Positions 7,638 to 57,647 of a DNA stretch of 64,000 nt are shown here, one piece after another. A program made the position numbers and the translations under genes. Under the pieces are notes generated by a model. It did not search any database and had not been told where the DNA came from. It saw only the letters and a list, made by a program, of their open reading frames with translations. Numbering within the stretch: the stretch's first letter is position 1; each line of letters begins with the position of its first letter. This DNA is from Trypanosoma brucei (lineage: Eukaryota), in contig CH464491.1 of assembly GCA_000002445.1 (NCBI GenBank), positions 2,240,001 to 2,304,000 on the forward strand, read 5' to 3'.

Positions 7638-7973
7638 ATGACGACGAAGCGCCGCAATCATGGTCGTGCCAAGCCTCCCTGCAGCCGTGGTCGTGTCCGG
7701 CCTGTGCACTGCTTTAACTGCAGCCGTCTCGTTCCCAAGGACAAATCTGTTGGCCGCTTTGTGGTCCGCCGTATGCTCGATCAGGCTTCCGCCCGTGACG
7801 TGGCTGAGGCATCCCTCATCTACGGTTCTGGTTTCCCTATGCCAAAGCTCTACATGAAGCAGCGCTACTGCATTGCCTGCGCTATTCACAGTCGAACTGT
7901 ACGCGCCCGCCCTGTGGAGGATCGCAAACGTCGCTACACGTCCAAGGTGCCCTTCCGTCCAACTGGCAAGTAA
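7638..7973 (+). CDS. RPS26: 40S ribosomal protein S26 (eS26), 111 aa
   Basis: The start is ATG at 7638. 'MTTKRRNHGRAKPPCSRGRVRPVHCFNCSRLVPKDK...YCIACAIHSRTVRAR' is near-collinear with eukaryotic eS26, including the CxxC...CxxC zinc-ribbon. Confidence 0.93.
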   Translation: MTTKRRNHGRAKPPCSRGRVRPVHCFNCSRLVPKDKSVGRFVVRRMLDQASARDVAEASLIYGSGFPMPKLYMKQRYCIACAIHSRTVRARPVEDRKRRYTSKVPFRPTGK

Positions 7974-8313
7974 TAACTCCACCCGCCACTGCGTGGCTGA
8001 AGGAGTAACCGGGGAGCATATAATAATAGTCGTGCTGGATGTGTGAAGTCGCTGAGCAAATCGCAGTCTGTTTACCTCTTTTGTGTTCTATATCTTAGAC
8101 ATCAGACATGTGATCTTGCATTGTACTAGCGCATTGCCTCCTTGCCGCAAATATGTTTTTATTTTTATTTTATTTGTTTATTTATTTCCTGACACTCCCC
8201 GTGTCTCGATATCTATAAATGTTCCCACGAAGCTAAAGAACAGTGGTGAAAGGAAAAAAGGACCGGAAGCACTGGAGCTTCGTGGTTTGGTCCTATTTCA
8301 TCACCCCCCCCCC

Positions 8314-8332
8314 AAAAAAAAATTAGAACACC
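8314..8332 (+). repeat. C10A9 homopolymer junction
   Basis: tcaccccccccccaaaaaaaaattag seen directly. Analogous C11A9 lies at 20564-20583 and C8A9 at 46889-46905. Confidence 0.85.
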
Positions 8333-8371
8333 ACTGTATGTCTTTGTAGAGCTGGGCGAAAAGTCACTACT

Positions 8372-8430
8372 ATTTACCTTTTCTCTCCTTTTGTTCTTAC
8401 TTTCATTTGCTTTGTTCCGTTTCCTCTCCG
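8372..8430 (+). promoter_or_regulatory. polypyrimidine tract, candidate trans-splice acceptor region for RAD50
   Basis: A C/T-rich run (ctatttaccttttctctccttttgttcttactttcatttgctttgttccgtttcctctcc) lies ~270 nt upstream of the RAD50 ATG. Confidence 0.4.
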
Positions 8431-8697
8431 AATGCTGCGCTCTTGTTGTGGCCGGATCCACTTTCATTGAATTTTGGAAGCGTGTTTCGGGAGAGGAAAG
8501 TAGGGGATAGGTGAACAAGTACGTATATAAAACACACGTAAGTTAACTTATATATACCTGCTTGTGTTTGTTTATTGTTGTACACTGGTTGTTCACTAAC
8601 GTTCGAACCTTGACGACGGTGTGTATCTGCATCACTTCAAAGGCTAACGACACGAACGAAAACACATACGTGTAGCGGCTGAACATACACCCTTTCA

Positions 8698-12747: not shown

Positions 12748-13598
12748 GAGGTGTAAACCTCCTTGCTTACGACTGGATGTGGATGTGCTACCACGCGTGG
12801 TCGTGTGTTGAAAACAGAAAGATGTTTGAAGGGGGAAAAAATGAGAAATGGGCGCACTGTGGGGAGTGCGGGAAATAAAAATGGTAGTACGTGAAAGGAG
12901 GAGCACCTCAAGGTGGGCTGAGTTGTTTGTTTGTTTTTGTTTTATTGTATTTCACTCTTCAAGTTAGCCCTTTAAACATTGCTGTCTCCCTGTACGTGTA
13001 GGCCCTAACTTAGTTGCTGTGCGTCGCTTGCACACGAGTCAGAGGAGAGTAAATAAAAAGAACAGAGAAATGCTAAAAAAGCAAAAGGAAGAGGGATGAA
13101 TGGGTGACACCCGTGGTGATGGATAGTGGAGAGTTTGAAGATACTTTGTAATGCCCCATCGTTTCTTTATATACAAAAATATATAAACCTATATATCCAT
13201 CTGTACACAGAGATAAGTCTATATATATATATATATTTGTATTCATATATTCAAGATTATATACCTCAAAACTTTCTTCATCTCCCTGCGCATACATCTA
13301 CAAATACACATATATATGTATATCTATATATGCATGGGCTCATGCAAGCACATTACCTCACGTGCGTAGCACACAAATTGCGCTTATGAGGGTGGGCTCC
13401 CATGGTGGAGTGCTGCCAGAACTCCGGTTTCCTCATCGGCGCGACCCTTCTTTTTGTAGTTCCTTTTATTTAATATAAAGATGAAATATATATTTCTTCA
13501 CTGCGCATACATGTACACCTCTCCGTATATACCATACCTATCACCTTTCCTTTCTACACAATTCCACTGTTATATAAACGATTATACAAACACACGTG

Positions 13599-13624
13599 TA
13601 ATATATATATATATATATATATAT
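13599..13624. repeat. (TA)13 microsatellite
   Basis: Seen directly. A second shorter (AT)8 run lies at ~13220-13236. Confidence 0.9.
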
Positions 13625-13983
13625 GTTCACCACTTTTGTTATGTTTTTTCTTTTTTTTGTGTTTCAGAGTTTTTCGTTACACACATTTTTTTCCTGGTTT
13701 TGATGCCGGTCCTGATTCCTTCCTCCCACTCTTATAGTAAAAAAGATGAAGGGAAGGGAGTTTAAAATAAGATTTTTTTAAAAAAGACAAGCTGAGTCGG
13801 TAATGATCTGGAGGAGAGCCGTTCGTTTTTTTTTTTTCGTTTTTGTCTATAGAGATTTAAGTATAAGTAACTCTTTGAGTCCTTTAGGGGTCAACTTCCT
13901 GATTAAACTCCTTACATTTGTTCAGTCGCTGTGTCCTTCGCATCCGTGCGCATGAAAAAATTAATAAAGTGCTAATTTGCTTT

Positions 13984-14017
13984 TCTAATCCTCCCTTTTT
14001 TTTTTCTTTCTCCCCCC
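13984..14017 (+). promoter_or_regulatory. polypyrimidine tract upstream of the Aurora kinase gene
   Basis: The tract is cctcccttttttttttctttctcccccc, ~45 nt upstream of the ATG at 14058. Confidence 0.35.
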
Positions 14018-14057
14018 ACGCATGCTTTTGAAGTTTTGATTCTTTTTAGTAGAAACG

Positions 14058-14987
14058 ATGAGGTCAACTGAGGTCGGGCGTGTTGTGGAGGATTTTATTG
14101 TACTCCCTCCGACACCCAAGTCCAAGTGGAAGTTGTCTGATTTCGAGCTTTTGCACAAACTTGGCGGCGGCAATTACGGGGATGTACACCTCGCCTCCGT
14201 GAAGGATTGCAATTTTGTTTGCGCGCTGAAAAGGTTGTCCATTAAAAAACTTGCGGATTTTGACATTGCGACGCAACTCCGTCGTGAAATTGAGATCGCT
14301 TTTAACACGCGTCACAAGTACCTGCTGCGAACCTATGCATACTTCTTTGACGAAACTGATATTTATCTCATTATGGAGCCATGCAGCAACGGCATGCTTT
14401 ACACGGAACTCAACCGAGTGAAATGCTTTGCGCCACCGACAGCAGCCCGTTACGTGGCTCAGCTCGCTGAAGCCCTCCTCTACTTGCATCAACATCACAT
14501 CCTCCACCGCGACATTAAGCCGGAGAATATTTTACTAGATCACAACAATAACATCAAACTGGCGGATTTCGGTTGGTCAGTCCACGATCCGGATAACCGT
14601 CGCAAGACATCTTGCGGGACGCCAGAGTATTTTCCACCAGAAATTGTGGGACGACAAGCGTACGATACGAGTGCTGACCTTTGGTGCCTGGGCATCTTCT
14701 GTTATGAGCTTCTCGTTGGTAAAACACCGTTTGTTGGAAAGGATACAGACCAAATCTGCAAGAACATTCATTCCATGCACTTCAAAATACCGGAGAATAT
14801 ACCGTCAGAAGCGAAGGACCTCATCGCGAACTTGCTTCTGCGTGATGGGTCACGGAGGCTTGCACTTCACCGTGTCGTGAATCACCAGTTCCTTCTCAAG
14901 TATTATTATCTCCCAAACAATTTACAACCTCCCACTGGAAAGCGTCCGCGTCTCGATGCAGAGCCAACTGCAGGGAAAGAGAATTAA
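14058..14987 (+). CDS. AUK1: Aurora-family serine/threonine protein kinase, 309 aa
   Basis: The start is ATG at 14058. Kinase motifs are the Gly loop 'LGGGNYGDV', Lys 'CALKRL', catalytic loop 'HRDIKPENILLD', the Aurora-diagnostic 'ADFGWSVH' DFG motif, 'GTPEYFPPE', and subdomain IX 'DLWCLGIFCYELLVG'. The symbol is inferred from memory of the T. brucei RAD50-AUK1 neighbourhood. Confidence 0.85.
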   Translation: MRSTEVGRVVEDFIVLPPTPKSKWKLSDFELLHKLGGGNYGDVHLASVKDCNFVCALKRLSIKKLADFDIATQLRREIEIAFNTRHKYLLRTYAYFFDETDIYLIMEPCSNGMLYTELNRVKCFAPPTAARYVAQLAEALLYLHQHHILHRDIKPENILLDHNNNIKLADFGWSVHDPDNRRKTSCGTPEYFPPEIVGRQAYDTSADLWCLGIFCYELLVGKTPFVGKDTDQICKNIHSMHFKIPENIPSEAKDLIANLLLRDGSRRLALHRVVNHQFLLKYYYLPNNLQPPTGKRPRLDAEPTAGKEN

Positions 14988-28738: not shown

Positions 28739-29084
28739 GTTAATACTTGGTGTTTTGATGCCTTCCCCATTGTGTATGTTTTGTTTGAGTTTCAGGTGAA
28801 GTCCGACTGCACATAACGTCTCCCATACCCCTGTTTAATTATGCCACTGCATAGCAAGAGTGAACCCTGTTCTTTTGCCCAGTTTGCTCTGTGAACGCAT
28901 GCATTTTTTGTCCATGTTTTGTTGCAACAATCGCCCCACATGTCTTTGACACGCTCTCATTTGTGTAACCGCAGAGTTTACGGCACTAGCTTTGCAGTGC
29001 GGTGACACACGCATAGATTTATTTTGTTATATCTTTTACATATATTTCCCCCCGTCGGAGTATACCTCGCATTTGATCAACACG

Positions 29085-31772
29085 ATGGATGAAACACCGA
29101 ATGCTGTAAAGCAGCTATATACGGATGTGGAGTACACCATAGGGTCCAACCCAGAAATGGAGAAGCAGGTGAAGCACGGCTGTGTGGTTATCGGACGGCT
29201 GCGTGTGTACTCAAGCTATAACTCGGGCCTTGCATTTGTGCGTAGTGGTGCTTTCCCAGCGGATGTTGTTGTGAAGGGATACGGAAGTATTAATCGTTTT
29301 TTGCATAATGATGTGGTTGCGGTGCAACTTCTTCCCATGGAGCAATGGGAAGACGTGGTTTCGGGTGAGTTGGAACCGGATGGCGACGATAAGGATGAGT
29401 TTCGCACGATGAGACCGGATTCAGAGAGACTCCCCGATGGGCGGCGCATCACACGGTGGATACGAGACACCACGATGAATAACAGAAAAAACCGAGAGAT
29501 GTGGCTGGCGGAGATGATGTCCGCCCCAACCCAGCACAACTGGCATGGCAAGAAGCCGTCGGGAAGTGTGATAGCCGTCCTCGAGCGTAAGCACCCACTG
29601 CTTTTTGTGGCCCGCTTGGCCGACGACGCGCTCTCCTCTCAGGAGGTTATACAGGACAGACGCTTCTACCGTTTCAAAGTATTTGATCAATTACTTCCTC
29701 ATATCGCCGTTTTTGGCCGTGATATTCCTTTTAGCCTGCGTGAGAGTATCAGGGAACGGTTTTACTTGTTACGTCTGGAAACGACAACTGGTGGGGACAT
29801 AGTGTGGGTGGAATCTCGTTTTCCCACTGCAAGGATAATATCCACGTTTGGTAGTGTGCACTCGTTGCGTGCAAACACTTTCGCGATTTGCTCTGCGCAC
29901 CACATTGTCACGGACGACTTCTCAGAAGAGGCGTGCAACTGTATACCCGACCGGCTAATAATTCCGAACTCAGAGGAAATGAAACGAACCGGTCGCCGTG
30001 ATCTGCGCAGAGAAGAGTTCGTGTGTAGTATCGACCCTGCCACGGCCCGTGATCTGGATGACGCCCTTAGCATAACCTTATTGCCAGGAGGGTACCGTGT
30101 TGGGGTTCATATCGCCGATGTATCACATTTCGTTTCCCCGGGGTCGGCACTTGATGAGGAGGGTCGTGCGCGGGCGACGAGTGTGTACCTTGTGGACCGA
30201 GTTTATCACATGCTTCCACGAAAACTGAGCGAGGAGTACTGCAGTTTGCACCCAGGGTCCGATAAACTTGCTTTCTCTGCCATCTTTCAGTTGGACCTCA
30301 ACGGCAAGCTGAAAGGGGAATGGTTTGGAAAGAGCGTTATCCGCAATCGTTGCCGCCTCTCATATGATGATGCTCAACGAATTATCGATGGTAACCTAAC
30401 TACCCTTGATGCATTAGATTACGGTGGCGTAACGGATCGCCGAGAGCTTTCGCAGCTGAAGGAACGTGTTGCGACGTCGGTGAAACACCTTTTCGATCTG
30501 GCATCCAAACTCCGCGCTGCAAGTTTTGAACGGGGTCGTCTAGCGTTTTCCACTCCTGAGATCGGTTTTCACTTTGAGGACATATCGAATCCCACGCACC
30601 CAATTGGGTTCAATGTCCATAGGCAGATAGAGGCAAATTGGCTGGTAGAGGAGTTTATGCTGCTTGCCAACTTACGAGTCGCCCAAAAGATTGTGCAATA
30701 CCTTCCTGACCAAGCAATACTGCGTGTGCACCCACCACCGAAGAGGGTTCTGTTTGAACAGCTGAAGCTGTCTCTTGCAAGAGTGAACATTGAGCTGAAA
30801 GGACGATCCAACAAGTCGCTCGAGCAACTTCTTAATAGCGTGAGGGATCATCCGTTGCGGGACGAAATTTCTATCATGGTGAAGAACACTCTGTCTCTAG
30901 CGAAGTATTGTACAAACGGTGAAAATTTTACTAACAAAGTTCCCCTCGGGCACTACGCTCTAGGGTTAGAGTGGTATACGCACTTCACCTCACCCATTCG
31001 CCGCTACGCTGATATCATCGTCCACCGGCAGCTACTATGCGCTTTGGAGATCGAATCAATTGTAAAGGGGAAGCACCGCACCGGCAAGACATGTGCGGGT
31101 GCTGTTGGAATGGAGGTGGAATGTCTTGACTCAGCGGAGTTTTTTACTTCCACTTATGAAGTCATGAATATTGCAGATGAATGCAATGAGAATAAGAGGG
31201 CTGCGGACAGTGTGAGCGAAGCTTCACTAAAACTATTCTTCTGTCACTATCTCAAGTCCTTGCGGTCTCTGTGGGTTTCGAGCAACAAAGAAGATCCCTT
31301 TATTCCACGCGTGGATGCCGTCGTCATAAGCGTGGCTCCTGAAAAAAAGGTGTTGATGCTATACGCAAGAGTGGTAGGGATCAGTGTTGAGATTAGTTTA
31401 AAAAGTAAGACACAAAAATTTGTTGCGGAAAGCGGTAATAATGAGAATAGGGATGAGTCCAACAAGGAGGAAACTGCGTCGCTTCACAGTGAGATAAGAA
31501 GAAAAAGAGGGAGCGCCACTGGGGGAAATCACAGGGGTGGGGAGAGACAAAAGAGCCCTCCACGTGCGCAAGAGGCGAAGATAACCATCAACTGGGGGTT
31601 ACACCCCCAAACTAATGAAAAGGTTGAAGAGGAGATTAAAGAACTCATGATGGTTTCCGCCGTCCTAACAATAAAACGAAACGTGAAAGGCTATGAGGAA
31701 CCGGATATGATTATGGACCCACCGTGGTTGCGGGACGAAAAACGGATGGCAATACCCACAAGTCTCGTTTGA
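29085..31772 (+). CDS. RNB-domain 3'-5' exoribonuclease (RNase II/R/DIS3 family; DIS3L2-like architecture without a PIN domain), 895 aa
   Basis: The track ORF begins at TTG 28992, and the first ATG is 29085 (MDETPNAV). RNB motifs are 'CSIDPATARDLDDALS' (motif I), 'VYLVDRVYHMLPRKL', and 'HYALGLEWYTHFTSPIRRYADIIVHRQL' (motif IV). A cold-shock-like N-terminus is present (GCVVIGRLRVYSSYNSGLAFVRSG...VVAVQLLP). The C-terminal tail is RG-rich. Confidence 0.85.
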   Translation: MDETPNAVKQLYTDVEYTIGSNPEMEKQVKHGCVVIGRLRVYSSYNSGLAFVRSGAFPADVVVKGYGSINRFLHNDVVAVQLLPMEQWEDVVSGELEPDGDDKDEFRTMRPDSERLPDGRRITRWIRDTTMNNRKNREMWLAEMMSAPTQHNWHGKKPSGSVIAVLERKHPLLFVARLADDALSSQEVIQDRRFYRFKVFDQLLPHIAVFGRDIPFSLRESIRERFYLLRLETTTGGDIVWVESRFPTARIISTFGSVHSLRANTFAICSAHHIVTDDFSEEACNCIPDRLIIPNSEEMKRTGRRDLRREEFVCSIDPATARDLDDALSITLLPGGYRVGVHIADVSHFVSPGSALDEEGRARATSVYLVDRVYHMLPRKLSEEYCSLHPGSDKLAFSAIFQLDLNGKLKGEWFGKSVIRNRCRLSYDDAQRIIDGNLTTLDALDYGGVTDRRELSQLKERVATSVKHLFDLASKLRAASFERGRLAFSTPEIGFHFEDISNPTHPIGFNVHRQIEANWLVEEFMLLANLRVAQKIVQYLPDQAILRVHPPPKRVLFEQLKLSLARVNIELKGRSNKSLEQLLNSVRDHPLRDEISIMVKNTLSLAKYCTNGENFTNKVPLGHYALGLEWYTHFTSPIRRYADIIVHRQLLCALEIESIVKGKHRTGKTCAGAVGMEVECLDSAEFFTSTYEVMNIADECNENKRAADSVSEASLKLFFCHYLKSLRSLWVSSNKEDPFIPRVDAVVISVAPEKKVLMLYARVVGISVEISLKSKTQKFVAESGNNENRDESNKEETASLHSEIRRKRGSATGGNHRGGERQKSPPRAQEAKITINWGLHPQTNEKVEEEIKELMMVSAVLTIKRNVKGYEEPDMIMDPPWLRDEKRMAIPTSLV

Positions 31773-34833: not shown

Positions 34834-35427
34834 GCTCTCTACCGTCCACACTATTTTGTGTGTCATGTGATGTGTCTGTATGTGTGATTGTGATCGTAGT
34901 GAGTGGAGAATAGATTATGATGAAACAGATACGGCATGAGCGCTTCTCTTTTCCGCACCGTTTCCCTCCTATACATTTACTGTTATTTCATTCATTTTCA
35001 CACTTAGTGGGAGTACGCGTTCTCACTTTTTATTTTTTTGTTCACTGTGCTTGGCGTCAACATTGCCTCTGCGTCTTTGAACCTCGGTCTACGTCCTCTT
35101 CTGTCATTTCTCATACATTCTTTGATTTTTTTTTGTTGGTGTGTGTACTCTTACACTTCCTTATTGACTTGTCGGTTCATATATGAACGTACACGCACAT
35201 ATATATATGTATATATATTCATTTACTTAGCAGTGATCTGTCATTGGTGAAGTTCAATAGCTTTCCCATTAGTACGTGGAGGGATCCGGAAGAAGGGAGG
35301 GAACCCGAACGTATTTATTACCATTACATCAACCAACTAACAAGGTAGTGCAGCGTCTGAAGCTTCCATTCTTTATTATTATTGTTATTTGCTCGAAGGT
35401 TGTGATACGGTAAACTTTTTTCCTCAT

Positions 35428-36594
35428 ATGTCGACGCTAGCTTCTGCTTTGCCACTTCTGGCAACAAAAAACGTTCTTTGCGGCGTGACTGGCAGCACCA
35501 TACAATTCTTTTGTGATCTGACTAGAGATTACGGCCCCACTTCGACAAAAAAGAGTGTGATTATTGCATCATCGTGCGGCAATAGACCAATAGGCACTAC
35601 AGGAGCCCACATTGTTCTCAACGTATTCTTTGCAAAGGAAACGAAACCACAATTAGATGAAGATACTTTGGCTCCACTGCGAACGAGGGAAGTTTTTGGA
35701 CTGTATTGCTACCGGAGTGTGGTTGGGGAGAAAATACTTTGCATTGAGGTTGATTTCAACGATGTGGGTACCAAAAAGGTTGGTAAGGGCCGAGGCACTG
35801 TGCTTGCCACTAGCAGAGGATGCAGACCATTGGGAAACACAGGGATTTATTGTAGCTTCAACTGCTTACGGTCCCTTGGAGCACCATCAAACCTTTCGGA
35901 ATTATCTTCCGTCTTTCAGCCCTCCACCCATCCTGTTGGCGAGAAGGTTGATTTAGGGAATGGTTTCATAATGAACGTGGAGAGCTCAACACAGATAACC
36001 ATCGTATACGAGTGCGGTCGCGACGAGATGTGTGACACGGTGCGGCTCAGGCCGTATTTACTCAATGGAGTAATTAACCTCAACATGTGTATTCGGTGCG
36101 GGGTGAAACGAAACGCAGCATATGAGAATGAGAGCAGTAAAAAAAGAACTCTCCTTTTGAGTAATTCCTCCGTCTTTGCCAAACCATCTCTAACTGCACG
36201 AAATGCCAAGGCACGATATACTGTGACACCAGGGGTAAATACTGAGCGAATCCGTCTCGAGGTGCGGTTTGATCCGACATATATTCATTACAATGGAGGT
36301 TGGAATGAACCAATCATTGTGTCCAATACGGGCGGTTGGGTCACTCTGGAAGATGGCGTTATGTTTACTTTTTGTGCGCATAGGTCGCCAGTATCACTTG
36401 CATCCGATACCGTAGTAGATGCTGTTAGGGAGGTGCTTGGAGGGTTTTCACCGGAAGAGCTGGCGTACCTACGCTTTAAAGAGGTTTATCGGAAGGTTTT
36501 TGAAAAAGTTGGGACTGCCAATGCGGAGGAAGATGATATGAAGGAGGAAGTGAGGTTGGCGATAATTAGTCATTTTCATAGGAGGGCGTTTTGA
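35428..36594 (+). CDS. hypothetical protein with an internal duplication, 388 aa
   Basis: The track ORF starts at TTG 35389, and the first ATG is 35428 (MSTLASA). Two similar segments are present ('SCGNRPIGTTGAHIVLNVFF' and 'SRGCRPLGNTGIYCSFNCL'), suggesting an internal repeat. No known family is recognised. Confidence 0.5.
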   Translation: MSTLASALPLLATKNVLCGVTGSTIQFFCDLTRDYGPTSTKKSVIIASSCGNRPIGTTGAHIVLNVFFAKETKPQLDEDTLAPLRTREVFGLYCYRSVVGEKILCIEVDFNDVGTKKVGKGRGTVLATSRGCRPLGNTGIYCSFNCLRSLGAPSNLSELSSVFQPSTHPVGEKVDLGNGFIMNVESSTQITIVYECGRDEMCDTVRLRPYLLNGVINLNMCIRCGVKRNAAYENESSKKRTLLLSNSSVFAKPSLTARNAKARYTVTPGVNTERIRLEVRFDPTYIHYNGGWNEPIIVSNTGGWVTLEDGVMFTFCAHRSPVSLASDTVVDAVREVLGGFSPEELAYLRFKEVYRKVFEKVGTANAEEDDMKEEVRLAIISHFHRRAF

Positions 36595-38321: not shown

Positions 38322-39626
38322 ATGATGATGCGAGTGGTAGGTAAGGGGAAAAAAACAAAAGAGGTGAAAAAGAGCCGTGAGGCGTCTTCGGAGAAAAAAA
38401 TCCCGTCTCCTTTGGAAGTGGAGGGAGCTCAAGACGTGCCAAACGCCAACAATGTCCGTTACATCCTTCACAACCAATGGTCATTGACGTTGCTTGTGGA
38501 TATCTATGAGACGGAACGGCTTACGCAAATAGCTGTTGCCAATGGCGCAGCAATAGGGGACCTTCCTGTTCAGTTAAATCTGTCCGTATGGGCCCTCAAG
38601 AAAATGGGTGTGGGGAAATCCAGTCAGTCCCTTAGTGGATTATCAACGGAGTTGGTTGATGCCGGAAAAAATGTAAAGTGGATGTTGGGCGGGAGACTGC
38701 TGAAAATGGTTATTGATTTATCCGAGGGGCCCGAGTGCAGTGCATCAGCGGAACCGGGAAGATACACTTCACTTGCATCGATGAAACAGAGTTCGAAGTT
38801 GGGTGAGTCAAACTACAGAGTGACCGTAGACCTGTTGTGTGAAGGTGGTAATAAGTGGCCCGTATTTGGCACACCCGAGTCAACATGCAACACATCAGGG
38901 GACTCATCGCCAACAAGTATAGTCCCCCGTGCGTTAAAATTTAGCCTGTCTCCCGTCACCACGAGAGAAGCTAGTGCTTCATTAGACCAATCTGTCCTCA
39001 TGCAGCTGAATGAGTTTACCACGTTGGATACCAGTAGGTTTCCTGTTGTGAAATTATGCCTCAGCATGGAAGGGGAGAAGGGCCGAATTGTACATTTTGC
39101 GGAGCGCATATTTTCAGGGATAGGCGTAAGTGTGGACGTGCGGTGCTTGAGTGATGAGGAATTATCTCCTGAGGCCCGCAGAGAGCCAGGGACTGGAGTG
39201 AACATAACTGCTTTTGAAGAGCACGACAGTGAGGGGAGAGAATACCTTTTTATCGAGTTAGACTCTAGCAAGGATTACGGTGCAGTGGGCGACGACGAAC
39301 GGATAATTAGTAATGCAAATCACGTGCGCGTCGGGTCTCGTTACCTGCTGAACTTCACAGCTACGCGCCCAGCACCGCGACTGCCGGATTTTGCAGAGGT
39401 GTATAGAAGTGTTCGCGACCACCTTCACCAGTTGCCCAATGCATTGAACAACCTCAACATGCCGAGCGTGCGGGCTGCTGTAGTGAAAGATTTGGTCCAA
39501 CATGTGGCTTCGCGGGAGTTGAAAAACATGATTTGGGAGGCTGTTCGTTTGTATATTATTAGGGACTACCTGGAAGCTGATCAACGGAGTATCTCAACAT
39601 CTCCTATAGTGATTCGAACCCTTTGA
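38322..39626 (+). CDS. hypothetical protein, 434 aa
   Basis: The start is ATG at 38322. The ORF is long and co-directional with a Lys-rich N-terminus. I recognise no motif. Confidence 0.5.
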   Translation: MMMRVVGKGKKTKEVKKSREASSEKKIPSPLEVEGAQDVPNANNVRYILHNQWSLTLLVDIYETERLTQIAVANGAAIGDLPVQLNLSVWALKKMGVGKSSQSLSGLSTELVDAGKNVKWMLGGRLLKMVIDLSEGPECSASAEPGRYTSLASMKQSSKLGESNYRVTVDLLCEGGNKWPVFGTPESTCNTSGDSSPTSIVPRALKFSLSPVTTREASASLDQSVLMQLNEFTTLDTSRFPVVKLCLSMEGEKGRIVHFAERIFSGIGVSVDVRCLSDEELSPEARREPGTGVNITAFEEHDSEGREYLFIELDSSKDYGAVGDDERIISNANHVRVGSRYLLNFTATRPAPRLPDFAEVYRSVRDHLHQLPNALNNLNMPSVRAAVVKDLVQHVASRELKNMIWEAVRLYIIRDYLEADQRSISTSPIVIRTL

Positions 39627-40690
39627 GTAACGTTTCTCTTCACCACAAGCACTTATGTTGTCGTTTTTATTTGTGGTTGTACGTGTTTGTTAGAAGAAAT
39701 TATATCTGTGCGAGGGATTTAGTTATTGCTCGCAGCCGAGCGTTTGTACGTTTTGACGTGCGTCGCAGCGGTGCTCAGAGGTGGGGTCCCTCCTACACTT
39801 TCCTCTAAAAAGGAAAATTATCCACTGAAACTTTGACTTGTATATTAGCTGCGAATATCCACGTGGCTATTCTCGGAAGGAGGAGAGTGGGGGAGCAAAT
39901 GCACCGTATCATTTTCCGTCCCATTTTTTTTTTTCAATCTTCTTCACCTTCCCTTTTGTTTGTTGTGATGCTGCTGCAGGGATGTCTGTGTGACACTGAT
40001 GTGTTGTGCTTCTTCAAACAGACTTTAAGAAAATGAGCAAGCAGATAAATTTACATTCATTTATGCACCCGTGGTTACACTTGTACATTTATTTATTTCC
40101 AAAAAATATAAATACATGAATCGCATACAAGTGTGTTTGTATGCACCTGCAGGCTTTGGGAGGAAGAAGGGAGGAGGGGAAAGTTGGCAGCGACTGTTGC
40201 TGCTGTTGGCTCTGCCTTTCTATTTTTTCAAAGTTCCTTCGGTTTGGCGGTGGAACTCCGCCGTTCTCCATTGTTTTTCCCTTTACTTTCCAATTGTTTT
40301 CGAATCATAGTCCTCGTTTCTTTCTTCCCGCTCCTCCCACCTGTGACGTTTCTTTTTGAGAGCCGTGACAAGGCCGAATCTACCGGGAAAACTTCTTCTT
40401 TTCTTTGTTTCTTTCTTTTGCGACTTCAGCACCTGCGACACCCCCAAATATATATATATATATACACAATTGGAGTAAATTAAAACTATTTTTAACACCC
40501 TCAGGAAAAAAGAAGAAACGGGATCAGCAAACGGAGGATCAACTTTACGCTGTGTTTCTGAGATCGGAGGTCAGTTACAAGACCAAAAAAGTAAGAGGGG
40601 AAGGAAAAGTACATTTCGCACGCACACATCATCTTATATATTTATATTCATTTATATATAAAGCACTGAAGGATACTGTTGAGAACGTAT

Positions 40691-41995
40691 ATGCGTGTAG
40701 GAGGATATATGGGTACTTCCGAAGAGGATGGAAATACGGAGCTTTCCGTGAACGGCTCTTTGGATGGTGAAAAATCCATGGGCTTTCGCTGCCTAAAATG
40801 CGTCGGTGAAATTAGTACGTGGACGAAACTGACGAAACACCTGGACACGAGCTGGCACTACTCTGCTGCATGCGTTGAGTGCGGGAAGAAACACAGTTAC
40901 TTTGGTTCGTCACAGCCACACCGACACGAGATGAGCACCAAACATCGCGGATTCCTTGGCATATTCCATGAAAGAAACGACTACAAGATCGACCATCCGA
41001 TGGTACTTACGCGGGATCAGTATCGCTGCCATTGTGGCACATCATTCTTGTGTGTCCTGCATCTTGCCATTCATCTTCGCGACGAGCATCATAACCAATA
41101 CATCCCAAAGACGGTGAAATGTCTCACTTGCCAGGAGGAAGGCATGCTGGATGAGATGGCGGAACACTGGACGACAAAAAAAAGTGAAAACCGGAAAGGG
41201 CGGGGCTTACGATCGAAAAGGGGAACAGGTCCATGCGATGAAGGAGGGGTGCCGAAGGATTGTGAATTCGAAGTTGAAGGTTTCGGAGTGGATCAATTCC
41301 TCGTCCCATTCCCCAAGCGCCCACCTCGCAGCCCAAACGGGAGTCAATATGTCATTTTGTATCAGTGCCCGACTTGTCGACTTTTGTTTGATGAGTGGGC
41401 GGACATCCGGCAACATATTGAGGAATCAAACCACGTCCACGGACTTCCACCGGCACTTCTCCGTCGCCGAATAGAAAGAAGGGTTGGTTTAATAGAGCAG
41501 GGCTCGACCGGATATGGGCAGGTGGACTATCGGACAGCGGGAAATCGCTCGGCGGTTCGATACCTTAAAGAATTACTTGAAGTGTTTGCTGATATCAATA
41601 ACCCTGCCGTGAGGGAGCTTTTGTACAGATATGCCCCCACCAACAAAAATGTCGATCCGGATGATGAAGAAGTATTTGGTTACCAATGCCCCCTCGAGGA
41701 GTGCTCACAAGCCTTTCTAACCTATGGCGAGTTTCGAAGTCACATGAAAAGTACAAAACACCAAACGGAATGTAATATCGACCCGGTAACGGGAAAGCCG
41801 TGGCTCCCTTCGTGGGAGTCAAATCCGTACGCCTTTGAGGTGACCTTCACCATGAGACAATTGGTTGAAGTGTTTGGCTACCGCAAATGCGGGGAGTGCA
41901 ACCGCCCTTACAGGCCAGGAGAGGAACATTATCACTACCAAATGCACCACTTCACCGAAAAAATTGATTTCCGAATCCTGGAATCCACTCTGTAA
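40691..41995 (+). CDS. multi-C2H2 (U1/matrin-like) zinc-finger protein, ~434 aa with about 7 fingers
   Basis: The track ORF starts at TTG 40679, and the first ATG is 40691 (second at 40709). Fingers include FRCLKCVGEISTWTKLTKHLDTSWH, CVECGKKHSYFGSSQPHRHEMSTKH, YRCHCGTSFLCVLHLAIHLRDEHH, VKCLTCQEE...EHW, YQCPTCRLLFDEWADIRQHIEESNHVH, YQCPLEECSQAFLTYGEFRSHMKSTKH and CGECNRPYRPGEEHYHYQMHH. Confidence 0.75.
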   Translation: MRVGGYMGTSEEDGNTELSVNGSLDGEKSMGFRCLKCVGEISTWTKLTKHLDTSWHYSAACVECGKKHSYFGSSQPHRHEMSTKHRGFLGIFHERNDYKIDHPMVLTRDQYRCHCGTSFLCVLHLAIHLRDEHHNQYIPKTVKCLTCQEEGMLDEMAEHWTTKKSENRKGRGLRSKRGTGPCDEGGVPKDCEFEVEGFGVDQFLVPFPKRPPRSPNGSQYVILYQCPTCRLLFDEWADIRQHIEESNHVHGLPPALLRRRIERRVGLIEQGSTGYGQVDYRTAGNRSAVRYLKELLEVFADINNPAVRELLYRYAPTNKNVDPDDEEVFGYQCPLEECSQAFLTYGEFRSHMKSTKHQTECNIDPVTGKPWLPSWESNPYAFEVTFTMRQLVEVFGYRKCGECNRPYRPGEEHYHYQMHHFTEKIDFRILESTL

Positions 41996-42370
41996 AGAAA
42001 CATTTCTTTATGCCACGAAGAGTTTAACATGTACTGGAAAGAGGAGAAGAACGAAGATGAACGAGACGTTGAAATTTACGAGGATTATCATAATCAATAA
42101 TATTTTGCGCCTTTCTTTTTAAGGAAGAAAAGAAAAAGAAGGCAGAGTCCGTCGCATTAAGTATCTGACGTGGATAGATTGTACGAGCACACATAAAGGA
42201 GATGAGACTACGCCGATTTAACTTTTTTTAATCTTCAACGACCCCGGGAAGGTAAGTGAAACAGATAGTTTTTCACCCCTTTTTTCTTTTTTTTTCTTCT
42301 TGTTGCTTTGTTTTGTCTAGAGAGGAATGATATAAAAGGAAGGATAGAGGGGAACAGGAGAGCGTGTATT

Positions 42371-42405
42371 TGTATGTGTGTGTATGTGTGTGTGTGTGTG
42401 TGTGT
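42371..42405. repeat. imperfect (TG)n microsatellite
   Basis: tgtatgtgtgtgtatgtgtgtgtgtgtgtgtgtg seen directly. Confidence 0.85.
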
Positions 42406-42967
42406 TAAATGTATGCGGAGAAGGAATGAGTAGCTGAAATGCGGAGATTATTCCGTGGGAATTTTTATCCGAAACGAAGATAAATGCAAAACACCCCGCC
42501 CTTACCTGCTCCCCTCTTTTGAATTTTTCCTCTCTTTTTTTTTTCCTTCTTTCTACAATATGTTACATTCCTTTTTTTTTTTCTTTTAGGCCCTGCGCTG
42601 CCAAACCCGTATTTCATTTTATGTATGTGTTGTGTGTTTCTCACTGTGACGTGGCCGGGAAGGACTAAAGTAACTGCGAGAAGGAACTAATAATAAAAGA
42701 GCCTAAAAAAGGCTTCGGAAATCGGACCTCGCCAGGCGCTGAGGCCGCGTTTTTCTTTCTTTTTTTTCCTTTTATATTTTTGTTTTTGGTTTTGTTCGGT
42801 CGGACTCGATGGCCAAAACTCAAGCGGACAATACGCCGAGGGCCGCGTCCTCCCTCTTCCATTCCCTTTGGCAGTCGGGCGTTCAAACCGTCACTTGACA
42901 CTGTTTCGACAATTAAACATAGCCTTCAGTTTCTTTTTCTAAGTTTGTAACCTCCTGTTGTAACTTC

Positions 42968-43050
42968 ATTTTCTTTTTTCTTTTTTCTTTTTTCTTTTTG
43001 TTCCCTTCCCTTCCCTTTTCTTCCCTTTTCTCTTCCTTTTCCTTTTCTTC
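42968..43050 (+). repeat. pyrimidine repeat block: (TTTTTTC)n followed by (TTCCC)n
   Basis: ttttcttttttcttttttcttttttctttttg is followed by ttcccttcccttcccttttcttcccttttctcttccttttccttttcttc. Confidence 0.6.
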
Positions 43051-44358
43051 TTACTTTTACACTTTTTTTTGTTTTATCCTTCTCGCCCCTTCCGCCACTT
43101 AACTGCGTTCACACCACTTGCTAAATAATTTTTTTTTCTTTTCTCCTTTCCTTTCCTTTCCTTTTTTTTTTTGAAAGTTGTTTGCTTAAATTTTTCCGTT
43201 CAGTAACTTGACAGGTTGTTTATATTCTTATATTTAACTATATATTCAAATGCAGAATGCACACGAATGTATAAATGCATAAATATATATAAATATATAT
43301 ATGTATTAATAATATTTATTTGGTTTCCACCCCTTTTCTTAAGGGTACAATGGAACTTTCTCTTATTCATTATTATTTATGCAGAAAGACAGCAATACAT
43401 GCCCGTGCATATATTTATATATTTAATTTGGTATGTTGGATTACTTTACCAACACAGAATTTGGATAAATATCCTAACTGCCACATGAAGATGCGGAAAC
43501 CGAGTTGTTTCTCCTCTCATATATTCCAATCTTACTGTTTATTGTCTCTGTTTTAAATTGTTAACGGCTTCAGTCTTCTATCTTTTTCGTGTTTTTTTTT
43601 TCGTCTGTATCCTCTCGTGTGATGTCTCCTCTCGTTCTCTTCATCGATAAAGATTTAAAAAGGAAAAAAAATAATATGATATTATATATTTATATTTATA
43701 ATGTTGTTGTTATGATTGCTATGATTGTCTGTCGTTTGTGGTTCCCTTTCCATGTGTCCGGGTCCCGTTCTTATTGCCACGTGGCGCGATTTGCTTTTTT
43801 GTTTTGTTTTGTTTTCTTCCCTCACTTCTTAATTATATTTTTCTTTCACCCTTTTCTTTGTCAAATCGTTGATGTATTAATGACGTCTTTTTGTCGTTGT
43901 GTTGTCCTTCCTTTTTTTTTTGTTTTTTTTTTCAATGTATCATCCCTTTTTTTGTCTCGCTTTGTTTCCCCTTCTCCCCCCCCGTATTTCACTTCCTCAT
44001 TGCTTGCGTTACCGTTTCGCGTCCTTCCATCGGGGAAGCGTTCGTATGAATTATCAGTGATCAGCAAGAACTGTGAGCAAAAAAAAAAAAAAGAATTCTA
44101 CGGCCCTTCCATCAAGTGAAAAGAAAAGAAAAATGTAATATGTATTTATACTTATATATGCGCCGGGGAGCGAAAGCAAATGTGGGAGTTTTTTTTTTCA
44201 TTTTGTCTTTGCGTTTTTTTTTGTGTGTGTGCTTTGGTTAGGAGGAGGGAGTCTGGGGAAACAATGTTTGTGGTTCATTCAATTACAGAGGAAAGGGTAG
44301 ATTACCGAGCGTAACCTGAAGTAACTGAACCAAAAGTCGTTTGAGTCATCCGATTAGA

Positions 44359-44363
<5 letters not shown>

Positions 44364-44393
<30 letters not shown>
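44364..44393. repeat. (AT)15 microsatellite
   Basis: Seen directly, ~275 nt upstream of the katanin ATG. Confidence 0.9.
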
Positions 44394-44396
<3 letters not shown>

Positions 44397-44667
44397 TAAA
44401 TGGATCGGCTTTCCCGCCTGCAATACGATGTTGTTTCCGTCACATGAGGCTTTCCAACTCTAAAAAGAAAGAAATCCGTTATTTATTTATCCGTTATAAA
44501 ATTTGAGAAAGCTACGTTATTTAAGGTGCGCATGCACACTCCACCCATCTCTTTAGCGCTCGTGTCATTCAATTATATATCTCTTCTTTAATGTGTTTTT
44601 TATCTTCTTTCTTAACTTCTCAATTTTTGCTATTTACTGCTAACCCTCAAAGTGTAGAAGGAGTGAT

Positions 44668-56186: not shown

Positions 56187-57647
56187 ATGATTCGCTTGAG
56201 CGAAGTTGTGCGCCGCGTGTTGCTTCACGCTTCAGGTGGACGTTCGTGTAGATCATTCAGAAATGGATGTGGTGTCGAGAACGACCACGAAAACGGCAAC
56301 GCGGACCTTTTATCGTTGCGCTCCACCCTGCCCAATCAAAATGACTTTTTCTTTTCACGTTCTTCAGCCTCAAACTGTTGTCGCCTTTGCGGGGAGGTGT
56401 CTCAAACAATTCTTTCACACACTGGTTCACAGGCACATGTTACGGTAGAGGCACTCATGTGGCTGTTGTTTCAGAGAGCGAGACAATATAAGGATGGAGC
56501 TGTTGGTGTTTCTCCAACTGCAGCACGAAATTTTTTTGTTGAGGAGGCCAGAAGGTGGGAGGGAATACTGCAGTGTTCCTTAGTTAACCAGCGCTCGTCA
56601 TCACTTCATGCCATTACTGAGGATGGGTCACCTTGTCTTGAAGAATCTGCCGTGTATCATGGGGATCCCGCAACACTTTGGAAAGAGGTTGCTGAAAAAA
56701 GTGCGTTACGGCTGCAGAGTCAAATCCGCGTCTTGGGTAAACTTGGTGTGCTGAACGTTGTAGATTCCCTCTTTACAACGGCAAGCTCTGGTGGCTTGCA
56801 GCGTGACGCTGCTTTTCAGCGGATGGAGTGCATTGGTGATCACAATTGGGGGCATTCTGTTTGTCGTCGTATCGTGCTTCTTTTTCCAGAGGTTAACTGG
56901 CGGGCAAATTCAAATGTTTTGGTGATGGATGCATTACGGACGGTTCTTGAGTGTAATCAGCACCTGGTTCATGTTTTCACCTTGCTGCAGCTTAGCGACA
57001 AGCTAGGAGGCAGAGATGTGAAGGAAAAATCAGTGAAATTTAAAGCTGATATTGTTGAGGCGATTATTGGTGAATTGCACGTGGCATTATGGTCTTTGCA
57101 GTCTAGCACTAACGACGGTTTCACATCTATACCCTCAATTCACGGGGCTCCTTATACCATTCCTTTAGTTTCTATGGTGGAAGAGTGTTTAGATGGCATC
57201 GTGGGTCTTGTTATTCTTGCATTGATGGCGCGGTATGCCGCGTCCCTCGTGCCTGCCGTTGTGGATCTTGTCCGACGTGAGAAGTATCTGCTGGATGTGT
57301 CGTGCCCCTTTTATACGTTACGTAAGCGGCGGGAACGGTTCCGACAGGACGAACACGCCATGCGATGGTTATTGCCCCCGCACCCACCACTGCAGCAGCA
57401 GAGGCAGGAGTTGTTGAAGGGACCGCGGAGTTCTGTTGACACGTGCGTGAACGAGTGGAACCTTTCGAATACCAATCCTGTTGGTGATGTACTAGCCAAT
57501 GCCTCAGGTGGAGAAAATATGGCTCTAACAAATGCAATGGAGAAGCGGACCCCGACTGGGGTGGTTTGTTGGACGAAAAAGATTTTTTTCTCTGAAATGG
57601 CAGATTTCTATGGTTTGCTTCGCCTTCCGGGTGGGCAGCCGCCCTGA
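56187..57647 (+). CDS. RNase III-domain protein with a mitochondrial-presequence-like N-terminus, 486 aa
   Basis: The start is ATG at 56187. The N-terminus 'MIRLSEVVRRVLLHASGGRSCRSF' is Arg-rich and amphipathic. The RNase III signature is 'FQRMECIGDHNWGHSV' (ExxExxGD), with downstream 'FKADIVEAIIGELHVAL' (cf. 'KxxADxxEAxxGAxxLD'). Confidence 0.7.
   Translation: MIRLSEVVRRVLLHASGGRSCRSFRNGCGVENDHENGNADLLSLRSTLPNQNDFFFSRSSASNCCRLCGEVSQTILSHTGSQAHVTVEALMWLLFQRARQYKDGAVGVSPTAARNFFVEEARRWEGILQCSLVNQRSSSLHAITEDGSPCLEESAVYHGDPATLWKEVAEKSALRLQSQIRVLGKLGVLNVVDSLFTTASSGGLQRDAAFQRMECIGDHNWGHSVCRRIVLLFPEVNWRANSNVLVMDALRTVLECNQHLVHVFTLLQLSDKLGGRDVKEKSVKFKADIVEAIIGELHVALWSLQSSTNDGFTSIPSIHGAPYTIPLVSMVEECLDGIVGLVILALMARYAASLVPAVVDLVRREKYLLDVSCPFYTLRKRRERFRQDEHAMRWLLPPHPPLQQQRQELLKGPRSSVDTCVNEWNLSNTNPVGDVLANASGGENMALTNAMEKRTPTGVVCWTKKIFFSEMADFYGLLRLPGGQPP

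What the first reader, a model, noticed from the sequence alone, without database searches (positions are those of the whole stretch)
40691..41995. Seven tandem U1/matrin-type C2H2 zinc fingers in one protein
Kinetoplastid RNA-binding proteins are dominated by CCCH and RRM types, and multi-C2H2 proteins are uncommon. Here seven C2H2 fingers with long inter-Cys/His spacers (the dsRNA-binding U1-type) are spread through a 434-aa protein. Such fingers in trypanosomes are associated with RNA-editing and helicase-associated complexes, so this is a candidate dsRNA-binding scaffold.
Basis: partly seen in the sequence, partly recalled or inferred. Interest (0 to 1): 0.5.

Follow-up and report, generated by a model that had tools for sequence, protein, structure and literature searches.

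The report
Kinetoplastid seven-zinc-finger protein, function unknown
The seven zinc fingers are real and conserved across kinetoplastids, but they are ordinary, divergent C2H2 fingers packed into one compact protein of unknown function, and nothing ties them to double-stranded RNA or mitochondrial RNA editing.

Summary
The ORF 40691-41995 (+) is Trypanosoma brucei TREU927 protein Q384I6 / XP_828907. By gene order it is most likely Tb927.11.8330, formerly Tb11.01.0220.

**Observation.** It has six canonical C2H2 motifs. A seventh site (C144/C147/H159) gets its fourth ligand, C191, after a 31-residue loop. Shuffled sequences give 0.12 motifs on average, and the ligands are invariant or nearly so in 24 homologues across Kinetoplastea.

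**Subtype.**
- No finger reaches a Pfam cut-off.
- None hits zf-met, zf-C2H2_jaz or zf-U1, even at E<=10.
- The fingers are not tandem: there are two abutting pairs plus three singles.
- The Cys-His spacers are the standard 11-14 residues.

**New here.**
- The ancestral protein had about 10-11 fingers, built by internal duplication of a four-finger module. Trypanosoma kept seven.
- The protein is near neutral (pI 6.5) with few conserved basic residues.
- It has no presequence-like N-terminus, no detectable T. brucei paralogue, and is absent from every solved T. brucei complex.
- Its mRNA is 2.7-fold higher in bloodstream forms.

**Verdict.** I read it as a zinc-stabilised adaptor with an unknown partner. 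It is a real but modest finding.

The parts
40691..41995 (+). Coding sequence, 434 aa plus stop. It is T. brucei TREU927 Q384I6 / XP_828907.1 / EAN79795.1, most likely Tb927.11.8330 (old Tb11.01.0220). Alternative in-frame starts are 40709 (M7) and 40778 (M30, the start used in the T. b. gambiense model).
   Evidence: ORF and translation. Exact sequence match to the named records. Gene ID from gene order. The RAD51 and AUK1 anchor IDs are from memory, so the ID is inferred.
40790..40858 (+). Finger 1: C34-x2-C37-x12-H50-x5-H56. It is the first finger of pair 1 and carries the family's most conserved helix motif (T43 W44 T45 .. T48 K49 H50).
   Evidence: (CCHH in 24/24); beta-beta-alpha.
40871..40945 (+). 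Finger 2: C61-x2-C64-x14-H79-x5-H85. It starts 4 residues after the last His of finger 1 and is followed by the conserved HRG..G motif.
   Evidence: (CCHH in 23/24). H77 is not conserved; H79 is invariant.
41027..41089 (+). Finger 3: C113-x1-C115-x12-H128-x4-H133. It is the first finger of pair 2.
   Evidence: 24/24. Together with finger 4 it aligns with CTCF fingers 10-11 in the profile search.
41120..41263 (+). Finger 4: C144-x2-C147-x11-H159, then a variable basic loop (residues 160-190), then C191 as the inferred fourth ligand directly before the conserved strand EFEVEGF.
   Evidence: the first three ligands are present in 24/24. His or Cys lies at or next to the C191 column, or 3-4 residues after the His, in all members. 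pLDDT is 58-66 in the loop and 94 at 191-200. The ligand role of C191 is inferred, not measured.
41366..41434 (+). Finger 5: C226-x2-C229-x12-H242-x5-H248. It is homologous to finger 1 through the internal duplication.
   Evidence: Its best Pfam hits are all sub-threshold.
41450..41548 (+). Low-confidence linker (residues 254-286). It occupies the place where deeper-branching orthologues carry a further finger (F5b), which has been lost in Trypanosoma.
   Evidence: pLDDT below 50 at 254-261 and 270-286. The alignments show C-x2-C...H-x5-H here in non-Trypanosoma members.
41687..41761 (+). Finger 6: C333-x4-C338-x12-H351-x5-H357. The last ligand is Cys in T. congolense.
41888..41950 (+). Finger 7: C400-x2-C403-x11-H415-x3/4-H419/H420. 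It is CCHC in most homologues and CCHH in T. brucei.
40290..40430 (+). Pyrimidine-rich tract followed by AG dinucleotides upstream of the ORF. This is a candidate trans-splice acceptor region.
   Evidence: Read directly from the sequence. It was not tested against RNA data.

Best explanation
This gene encodes a member of an uncharacterised, Kinetoplastea-wide family of divergent C2H2 zinc-finger proteins.

**Architecture.** The ancestral protein had about 10-11 fingers. A four-finger module, made of two pairs of fingers that abut with only about 4 residues between them, was duplicated internally. It is flanked by an N-terminal finger pair and a C-terminal single finger. The genus Trypanosoma lost the N-terminal pair and the second finger of each pair in the second module, which leaves seven zinc sites in T. 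brucei.

**Proposed mechanism.** Each site should hold one zinc ion. The fingers, together with the equally conserved linker strands, pack into one rigid body. I think this body most likely works as a zinc-stabilised adaptor in the cytosol or nucleus. It would hold a conserved partner, either a protein or a structured RNA within an RNP, through the invariant surface of the F1-F2 pair. I do not think it reads a nucleic acid finger by finger.

**Shown:** the motifs, their conservation, the duplication, the predicted compactness, and the absence of detectable relatives.

**Inferred:** zinc binding, C191 as a ligand, the cell compartment, and the kind of partner.

The confidence of 0.4 refers to the adaptor mechanism. 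The identity and anatomy (a conserved seven-site C2H2 family member) I hold at about 0.9.
For: **The sites are real.**
- Six strict motifs against 0.12 expected by chance.
- Ligands invariant or nearly so across 24 homologues that include T. congolense, T. vivax, T. melophagium, Phytomonas, Angomonas and the prokinetoplastid Papus.

**Internal duplication.** Module 1 aligns colinearly with module 2 at 49-70 bits, E 1e-12 to 1e-20, in six deep-branching members. The start-to-start spacing is regular: 27/52/27 - 66 - 27/72/27 - 58.

**Paired fingers.** The linker between last His and next Cys is 4 residues in 37 cases. The canonical DNA-reading linker is 7.

**Compact fold.**
- T. brucei model: pTM 0.75, mean pLDDT 77.
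- A 740-aa deep-branching orthologue is confidently modelled over residues about 54-578.
- The linkers form strands and are as conserved as the fingers.

**No solved relative of the whole.**
- Foldseek finds only generic finger arrays at E>0.01.

**Charge.** pI is 6.5, the family median is about 6.5, and only six columns carry conserved Lys/Arg, four of them in the F1-F2 region.

**Expression.** The mRNA signal is high and 2.7-fold greater in cultured bloodstream forms than in procyclics (Jensen et al. 2009, PMC2771046, Table 3).
Against: - There is no localisation, interaction or phenotype data for this gene in any text I could reach.
- Low pI and few conserved basic residues argue only weakly against nucleic-acid binding. 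The four conserved basic columns at F1-F2 could form an RNA- or DNA-binding patch.
- Deep-branching orthologues carry long Pro/Gln-rich tails of the kind common in RNP-granule and transcription proteins.
- The compactness rests on AlphaFold models built from 24-26 sequences. I could not inspect coordinates, so the zinc-site geometry, including C191, is unchecked.
- Fragments of the gene gave no activation in a tethering screen, but that is the default outcome for most genes.
Confidence: 0.4

Rival explanations
1. One reading: a U1/matrin-type, dsRNA-binding multi-finger scaffold that acts in mitochondrial RNA editing or in helicase-associated complexes, as KH2F1, MRB6070 and KREPA1-3 do.
For: - Four fingers (F1, F2, F5, F6) have the H-x5-H spacing typical of U1-like fingers.
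- One of 24 homologues hits Pfam zf-met at E 1e-5.
- Trypanosome editing complexes do use C2H2 fingers. This is established knowledge and is reflected in the titles found.
Against: - No zf-met, zf-C2H2_jaz or zf-U1 hit for the protein or for any single finger, even at E<=10.
- The N-terminus is acidic, unconserved and disordered from any of the three possible starts.
- No match to any solved T. brucei chain, which now includes the editing catalytic complexes.
- No T. brucei paralogue among the 30 family hits of an exhaustive search.
- The protein is near neutral.
- An editing-type RNase III paralogue lies 14 kb downstream, but gene neighbourhood carries no functional meaning in trypanosome polycistronic units.
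Confidence: 0.06
2. A cytosolic or nuclear RNA-binding protein of mRNPs. It would bind RNA through the conserved basic patch on the F1-F2 pair and take part in post-transcriptional control, possibly in a stage-dependent way.
For: - Conserved Lys/Arg at columns 49, 69, 78 and 95, all within the F1-F2 region.
- Pro/Gln-rich tails in deep-branching orthologues.
- Stage-regulated mRNA, 2.7-fold up in bloodstream forms.
- Gene control in trypanosomes is mostly post-transcriptional (established knowledge).
Against: - No enrichment at high blasticidin in the tethering screen: 3.2 reads per million against 96-196 in the controls in experiment A, and 0 in experiment B.
- No recognised RNA-binding finger subtype.
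- Overall neutral charge.
- I could not consult the mRNA-bound proteome data.
Confidence: 0.25
3. A DNA-binding or chromatin-associated factor that uses classical C2H2 fingers.
For: - The family profile's best solved matches are DNA-binding arrays: CTCF fingers 10-11 at E 2.6e-7 and 2e-6, then Zif268 and Kaiso.
- hhalign against CTCF fingers 3-11 gives 96% probability.
- The basic loop in finger 4 of African trypanosomes (KKSENRKGRGLRSKR) looks like a nuclear localisation signal (read from the sequence).
Against: - These matches are the generic C2H2 signal; any finger array gives them.
- Linkers inside the pairs are 4 residues, not the 7-residue TGEKP type, and the pairs are 50-110 residues apart.
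- The predicted body is compact.
- The basic loop is not conserved outside African trypanosomes.
- The gene was not found in the held part of the nuclear proteome table, although that file is truncated.
Confidence: 0.12
4. A distant relative of the ZNF277 / ZNF622-Rei1-Reh1 group. It would act as a dedicated partner of a ribosomal protein or of the pre-60S particle.
For: - The T. melophagium orthologue passes Pfam zf-C2H2_2 (31.1 bits against a cut-off of 26.9) over F4-linker-F5. NCBI names it 'ZN622/Rei1/Reh1'.
- Four of 24 members hit that model.
- hhalign against a ZNF277 alignment gives 89% probability, E 2e-6, over three colinear fingers.
Against: - The control is stronger than the test. 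The same profile scores higher against CTCF, which is unrelated: 96%, E 2.6e-9, score 73 against 58.
- Rei1 and ZNF622 have solved structures (my own knowledge), yet neither appears in the profile search of the PDB at E<=1.
- The T. brucei protein is below the zf-C2H2_2 cut-off, at 14.5-16.7 bits.
Confidence: 0.08

Closest known systems
Classical C2H2 (beta-beta-alpha) zinc fingers, e.g. CTCF fingers 10-11 and Zif268
   Same: - The ligand pattern, the conserved aromatic and hydrophobic positions, and the predicted hairpin-plus-helix at each site.
- The family profile matches CTCF at E 2.6e-7.
   Different: - There are no TGEKP-type linkers.
- Fingers come as abutting pairs with 4-residue linkers, and the pairs are far apart.
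- The whole is predicted to be one compact body.
- The protein is near neutral.
- The T. brucei fingers all fall below the Pfam cut-offs.
U1-like / matrin-type fingers (Pfam zf-met, zf-C2H2_jaz, zf-U1; e.g. JAZ/ZNF346)
   Same: C-x2-C-x12-H-x5-H spacing in F1 and F5, and H-x5-H also in F2 and F6.
   Different: - No profile hit for the protein or for any single finger.
- Only 1 of 24 homologues hits zf-met.
- The helix ends in [S/T]-x-H rather than the Lys-rich G-K-K-H-type motif of these fingers (the motif comparison is from my own knowledge).
- The protein is not basic.
Trypanosome editing zinc-finger proteins (KREPA1-3, KREPB4-10, KH2F1, MRB6070)
   Same: The same organism and the same general finger class. 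KH2F1 also carries many fingers (from memory).
   Different: - No detectable sequence relation.
- No presequence-like N-terminus.
- Not a chain of any solved T. brucei complex.
ZNF277 and ZNF622/Rei1/Reh1 (Pfam zf-C2H2_2 double finger)
   Same: - Fingers are dispersed through a protein of about 450 aa.
- F4-linker-F5 resembles the two-finger zf-C2H2_2 unit in some orthologues.
- hhalign against ZNF277 gives 89% probability.
   Different: - The similarity is no better than to an unrelated finger array.
- The T. brucei protein is below the family cut-off.
- Rei1 and ZNF622 are not recovered from the PDB by the family profile.

Membership tests
C2H2 beta-beta-alpha zinc finger (generic) | C-x2-4-C-x12-H-x3-5-H ligand pattern, present more often than chance allows | tested here: met
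   Six strict sites against a mean of 0.12 and a maximum of 3 in 20,000 shuffles. The seventh site has a displaced fourth ligand.
C2H2 beta-beta-alpha zinc finger (generic) | Beta-hairpin followed by a helix at each site | tested here: met
   The DSSP assignment on the AlphaFold2 model shows strand-strand-helix at all seven sites, with pLDDT mostly 80-97 there. This is a prediction only.
C2H2 beta-beta-alpha zinc finger (generic) | Score above the Pfam gathering cut-off for a C2H2 model | tested here: not met
   - In T. brucei the best hit is zf-C2H2_4 at 20 bits against a cut-off of 27. No single finger passes.
- Some orthologues do pass: P0004 scores 36.2 on zf-C2H2_4 and 31.1 on zf-C2H2_2.
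- The family profile matches CTCF at E 2.6e-7.
C2H2 beta-beta-alpha zinc finger (generic) | Binds one zinc ion per finger | not testable with these tools
   This needs metal analysis of the purified protein.
U1-like / matrin-type finger (zf-met, zf-C2H2_jaz, zf-U1) | C-x2-C-x12-H-x5/6-H spacing | tested here: inconclusive
   - F1 and F5 fit exactly.
- F6 has x4 between the Cys residues, and F2 has x14.
- F3 (H-x4-H), F4 and F7 do not fit.
U1-like / matrin-type finger (zf-met, zf-C2H2_jaz, zf-U1) | Match to the family profile models | tested here: not met
   Zero hits at E<=10 for the whole protein and for each of the seven fingers. Among the 24 homologues, zf-met is hit by 1 and jaz by 0.
U1-like / matrin-type finger (zf-met, zf-C2H2_jaz, zf-U1) | Binds double-stranded RNA | not testable with these tools
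   Indirect evidence only: pI 6.5 and six conserved basic columns.
Mitochondrial editing / REH2C-type zinc-finger proteins | Mitochondrial targeting | tested here: not met
   - The first 30 residues hold 6 Asp/Glu and 2 Lys/Arg.
- The N-termini are unconserved among seven Trypanosoma sequences and are modelled as disordered.
- No dedicated predictor and no localisation data were available.
Mitochondrial editing / REH2C-type zinc-finger proteins | Sequence relation to, or presence in, known editing complexes | tested here: not met
   No T. brucei paralogue in the exhaustive search. No match to any solved chain.
ZN622/Rei1/Reh1/ZNF277 double finger (Pfam PF12756) | Score above the PF12756 cut-off | tested here: not met
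   T. brucei scores 14.5-16.7 bits against 26.9. Four of 24 homologues hit the model; the best is 31.1 bits.
ZN622/Rei1/Reh1/ZNF277 double finger (PF12756) | Profile-profile similarity above what unrelated finger arrays give | tested here: not met
   Score 58 against ZNF277 compared with 73 against CTCF.
TFIIIA | Nine contiguous fingers with short canonical linkers, and a match to TFIIIA models | tested here: not met
   PF22110 scores 16.5-17.1 bits against 27. PDB TFIIIA matches at E 0.014 only. The fingers are dispersed.

The most novel reading that the evidence does not exclude
The family would be a previously undescribed kind of multi-zinc domain. A duplicated four-finger module, made of tightly abutting finger pairs, folds with its linkers into a single rigid body that has no solved structural relative. 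The family is restricted to kinetoplastids, and possibly to wider Euglenozoa. It would serve a lineage-specific process by holding a specific RNP or protein partner.
Probability: 0.25. Interest if true: 0.55.

Novelty: new variant of a known kind. Interest (0 to 1): 0.3.

Why it matters
If the compact multi-finger body is real, it shows C2H2 fingers used as building blocks of a globular scaffold rather than as a reading array. It would also add a well-expressed, stage-regulated protein, conserved across kinetoplastids, to the list of lineage-specific factors worth tagging.

As it stands, the practical value is mostly corrective:
- The gene should not be filed as a U1-type dsRNA binder or as an editing factor.
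- Its annotation can be sharpened to seven zinc sites, one of them split by a loop, in a reduced form of an ancestral 10-11-finger protein.

Tried and rejected
1. **ZNF277 / Rei1 homology.**
   - I fetched real ZNF277 sequences, aligned them and ran hhalign. The result was 89% probability, E 2e-6.
   - I rejected it because the control against CTCF fingers 3-11 scored higher.
   - Rei1 and ZNF622 were also absent from the profile search of the PDB.
2. **Structural relatives of the whole protein.**
   - Foldseek against the PDB found only generic arrays, with query-normalised TM at or below 0.11.
   - The AlphaFold database library was unavailable.
3. **Word-indexed protein search.**
   - With the single protein it found only T. 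brucei and T. congolense.
   - With the family alignment it was swamped by generic finger proteins.
4. **Literature.**
   - No main text mentions Tb927.11.8320, 8330 or 8340, Q384I6, XP_828907, EAN79795 or the T. congolense ID.
   - The gene is absent from the held (truncated) supplements of TrypTag, the spatial proteome and the nuclear proteome.
   - The mRNA-bound-proteome paper and the first CITFA paper are not held.
   - The katanin and RRP44 papers did not give IDs.
   - The cap on papers stopped any reading of the TbZFP3 paper.
5. **Tethering screen.** There was no enrichment, which is uninformative.
6. **TFIIIA.** I considered it and rejected it on architecture and scores.
7. **Gene neighbourhood.** All ORFs lie on one strand of a polycistronic unit, so I did not use the neighbours as functional evidence.
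Full report
**What is at the coordinates**

The window is a one-strand gene array, as in a trypanosomatid polycistronic unit. The ORF from the ATG at 40691 to the stop at 41995 encodes 434 aa, and a second ATG lies at 40709. The exact sequence is T. brucei brucei TREU927 Q384I6 / XP_828907.1 / EAN79795.1, named 'hypothetical protein, conserved' by NCBI and 'C2H2-type domain-containing protein' by UniProt. The T. b. gambiense model starts at M30, and a third model starts at M7.

**Gene identity**

The upstream genes are RAD51, ribosomal protein S26, RAD50 and an Aurora-type kinase. From memory these are Tb927.11.8190 to 8220. Three IDs in the region are fixed by papers:
[quoted passage not shown] 2017 supplement).
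- Tb927.11.8350 behaves as a microtubule-structure protein and was formerly called a serine peptidase. That fits the katanin p60 gene at 44668.
- Tb927.11.8340 is a non-conserved 'hypothetical protein', and Tb927.11.8330 is a 1304-nt, plus-strand 'hypothetical protein, conserved' (Erben et al. 2014 supplement).

The finger gene is the last conserved gene before katanin, so it is most likely Tb927.11.8330. Its old-style neighbour count gives Tb11.01.0220. Jensen et al. 2009 list that gene as 'hypothetical conserved, zinc finger', 2.7-fold up in cultured bloodstream forms over procyclics, with a high signal (PMC2771046, Table 3). The ID is an inference from gene order.

**Check of the observation**

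A strict motif scan finds six C2H2 sites. Shuffles of the same protein give a mean of 0.12 and never more than 3 in 20,000 trials. The other 20 large ORFs of the window contain one such motif in total.

A seventh site has C144, C147 and H159 but no nearby fourth ligand. In the family alignment, most members carry His or Cys directly before a conserved strand (x-F-x-h), or a Cys 3-4 residues after the His. In T. brucei, T. congolense and T. vivax the residue before the strand is a Cys (C191 in T. brucei), and it is reached after a variable loop. AlphaFold2 models the loop poorly and the C191 region well (pLDDT 94), and it puts a hairpin plus helix at all seven sites. So seven zinc sites is a fair count, with one of them inferred.

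The words 'tandem' and 'long spacers' do not hold. The fingers form two abutting pairs plus three singles, and the Cys-to-His spacers are 11-14 residues.

**Finger type**

- The whole protein has only sub-threshold Pfam hits; the best is zf-C2H2_4 at 20 bits against a cut-off of 27.
- Each finger scanned alone gives nothing above a cut-off, and no zf-met, zf-C2H2_jaz or zf-U1 hit even at E<=10.
- Across 24 homologues the commonest hits are generic: zf-C2H2_4 in 8, zf-C2H2 in 6 and zf-C2H2_2 in 4. zf-met is hit once and jaz never.
- A profile of the family does match solved C2H2 proteins. The best is CTCF fingers 10-11, at E 2.6e-7 and 2e-6.

These are therefore genuine but divergent generic C2H2 fingers. 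The U1/matrin label rests only on the H-x5-H spacing in four of them.

**The family**

The word-indexed search found only T. brucei and T. congolense, at 53% identity. The exhaustive HMM search of 1.84 billion cluster representatives found 30 proteins, 24 of them at E<=1e-10. The named ones are T. vivax, T. melophagium, Phytomonas, Angomonas and the prokinetoplastid Papus. The rest come from unnamed assemblies, and one of those lies on a metagenome contig with same-strand neighbours. No second T. brucei protein appears, so there is no detectable paralogue.

Members outside Trypanosoma are longer, at 500-970 aa. They carry an extra N-terminal finger pair and a second finger after F5 and after F6. 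Their finger starts follow a regular plan: 27/52/27, then 66, then 27/72/27, then 58. The first four-finger block aligns colinearly with the second at 49-70 bits. This is an ancient internal duplication, and in T. brucei it has eroded to E 0.04. Trypanosoma species keep seven of the roughly 10-11 ancestral fingers.

**Structure**

- The T. brucei model has mean pLDDT 77 and pTM 0.75. Disorder is confined to residues 1-26, 254-286 and the last three residues.
- A deep-branching orthologue is confidently modelled over about 525 residues, between disordered tails.
- The linkers form strands and are as conserved as the fingers.
- Foldseek against the PDB returns only generic finger arrays, at E>0.01 with very low TM.

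I could not read the coordinates, so the geometry of the metal sites is untested.

**Against the editing and dsRNA reading**

- The first 30 residues hold six acidic and two basic residues.
- N-termini differ freely in length and sequence among seven Trypanosoma sequences.
- The protein matches no solved chain. The PDB copy does contain T. brucei editing complexes, as shown when a neighbouring ORF matched MP90 and MP61.
- The pI is 6.5 and the family values centre near 6.5.
- Only six alignment columns keep Lys/Arg. Four of them cluster in the F1-F2 region, which remains the best candidate for a binding surface.

**A lead that failed**

One orthologue passes Pfam zf-C2H2_2 and is named 'ZN622/Rei1/Reh1'. 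That suggested a link to ZNF277 or Rei1, which are partners of ribosomal components. I retrieved real ZNF277 sequences and compared profiles. The result was 89% probability, E 2e-6, over three colinear fingers. The same family profile scores higher against CTCF, which is unrelated: 96%, E 2.6e-9. The signal is therefore generic, and I dropped the lead.

**Most likely mechanism**

I favour a zinc-stabilised adaptor. Seven zinc ions would lock fingers and linkers into one body that presents the invariant F1-F2 surface to a conserved partner in the cytosol or nucleus.
- The motifs, their conservation, the duplication and the predicted compactness are shown.
- Zinc binding, the role of C191, the compartment and the partner are inferred.

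An RNA-binding role in mRNPs is the main rival, followed by DNA binding. The editing reading is the least likely. No localisation, interaction or phenotype data could be reached. The tethering screen shows no activation, which says little.

**Verdict**

The family-level anatomy is new detail on a known kind of protein. Interest is modest.

Noticed in passing
window 35389-36594 (+): By gene order this ORF (388-401 aa, no Pfam hit) is probably Tb927.11.8310. [quoted passage not shown]
   Followed up: partly
window 56187-57647 (+): This 486-aa protein has an RNase III domain below the Pfam cut-off (22 bits against 27). It is a clear paralogue of the editosome endonucleases MP90 (E 1e-26) and MP61. 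From memory it is possibly the mitochondrial guide-RNA processing nuclease mRPN1.
   Followed up: partly
window 28992-31772 (+): This RNB-domain exoribonuclease best matches DIS3-like exonuclease 2 (E 6e-88). It is not RRP44, which has a different gene ID (Tb11.02.5380, PMC8311971).
   Followed up: partly
window 5437-14987 (+): RAD51, ribosomal protein S26 (7638-7973), RAD50 and an Aurora-type kinase lie in a row. This cluster served as the anchor for the gene numbering.
   Followed up: partly
window 41996-44667: The 2.7-kb gap after the finger gene is T-rich (GC 36%, AT skew -0.29) and holds (TG)n, (AT)n and T/C-rich repeats. The only sizeable ORF in it (43622-44119) looks non-coding and probably corresponds to the non-conserved 'hypothetical protein' Tb927.11.8340. 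The gap may be a long 3' UTR of the stage-regulated finger mRNA.
   Followed up: no
window 40871-40945 (finger 2): A Cys in the finger-2 loop is conserved in 21 of 24 homologues (motif L-K-C-Y-G-P). It is Tyr70 in T. brucei and also Tyr in T. congolense, and both of these species have gained His77. This may be a change of ligand set.
   Followed up: no
window 38322-39626 (+): The upstream neighbour is also exactly 434 aa, has no Pfam hit, and is probably Tb927.11.8320. The equal length made the ID assignment ambiguous until gene order resolved it.
   Followed up: no
orthologues P0010, P0017-P0021, P0025, P0029, P0030 (C-termini): Deep-branching family members carry long Pro/Gln-rich, low-complexity C-terminal tails that are absent from trypanosomatid members. 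In the model of P0019 the tail is disordered.
   Followed up: no
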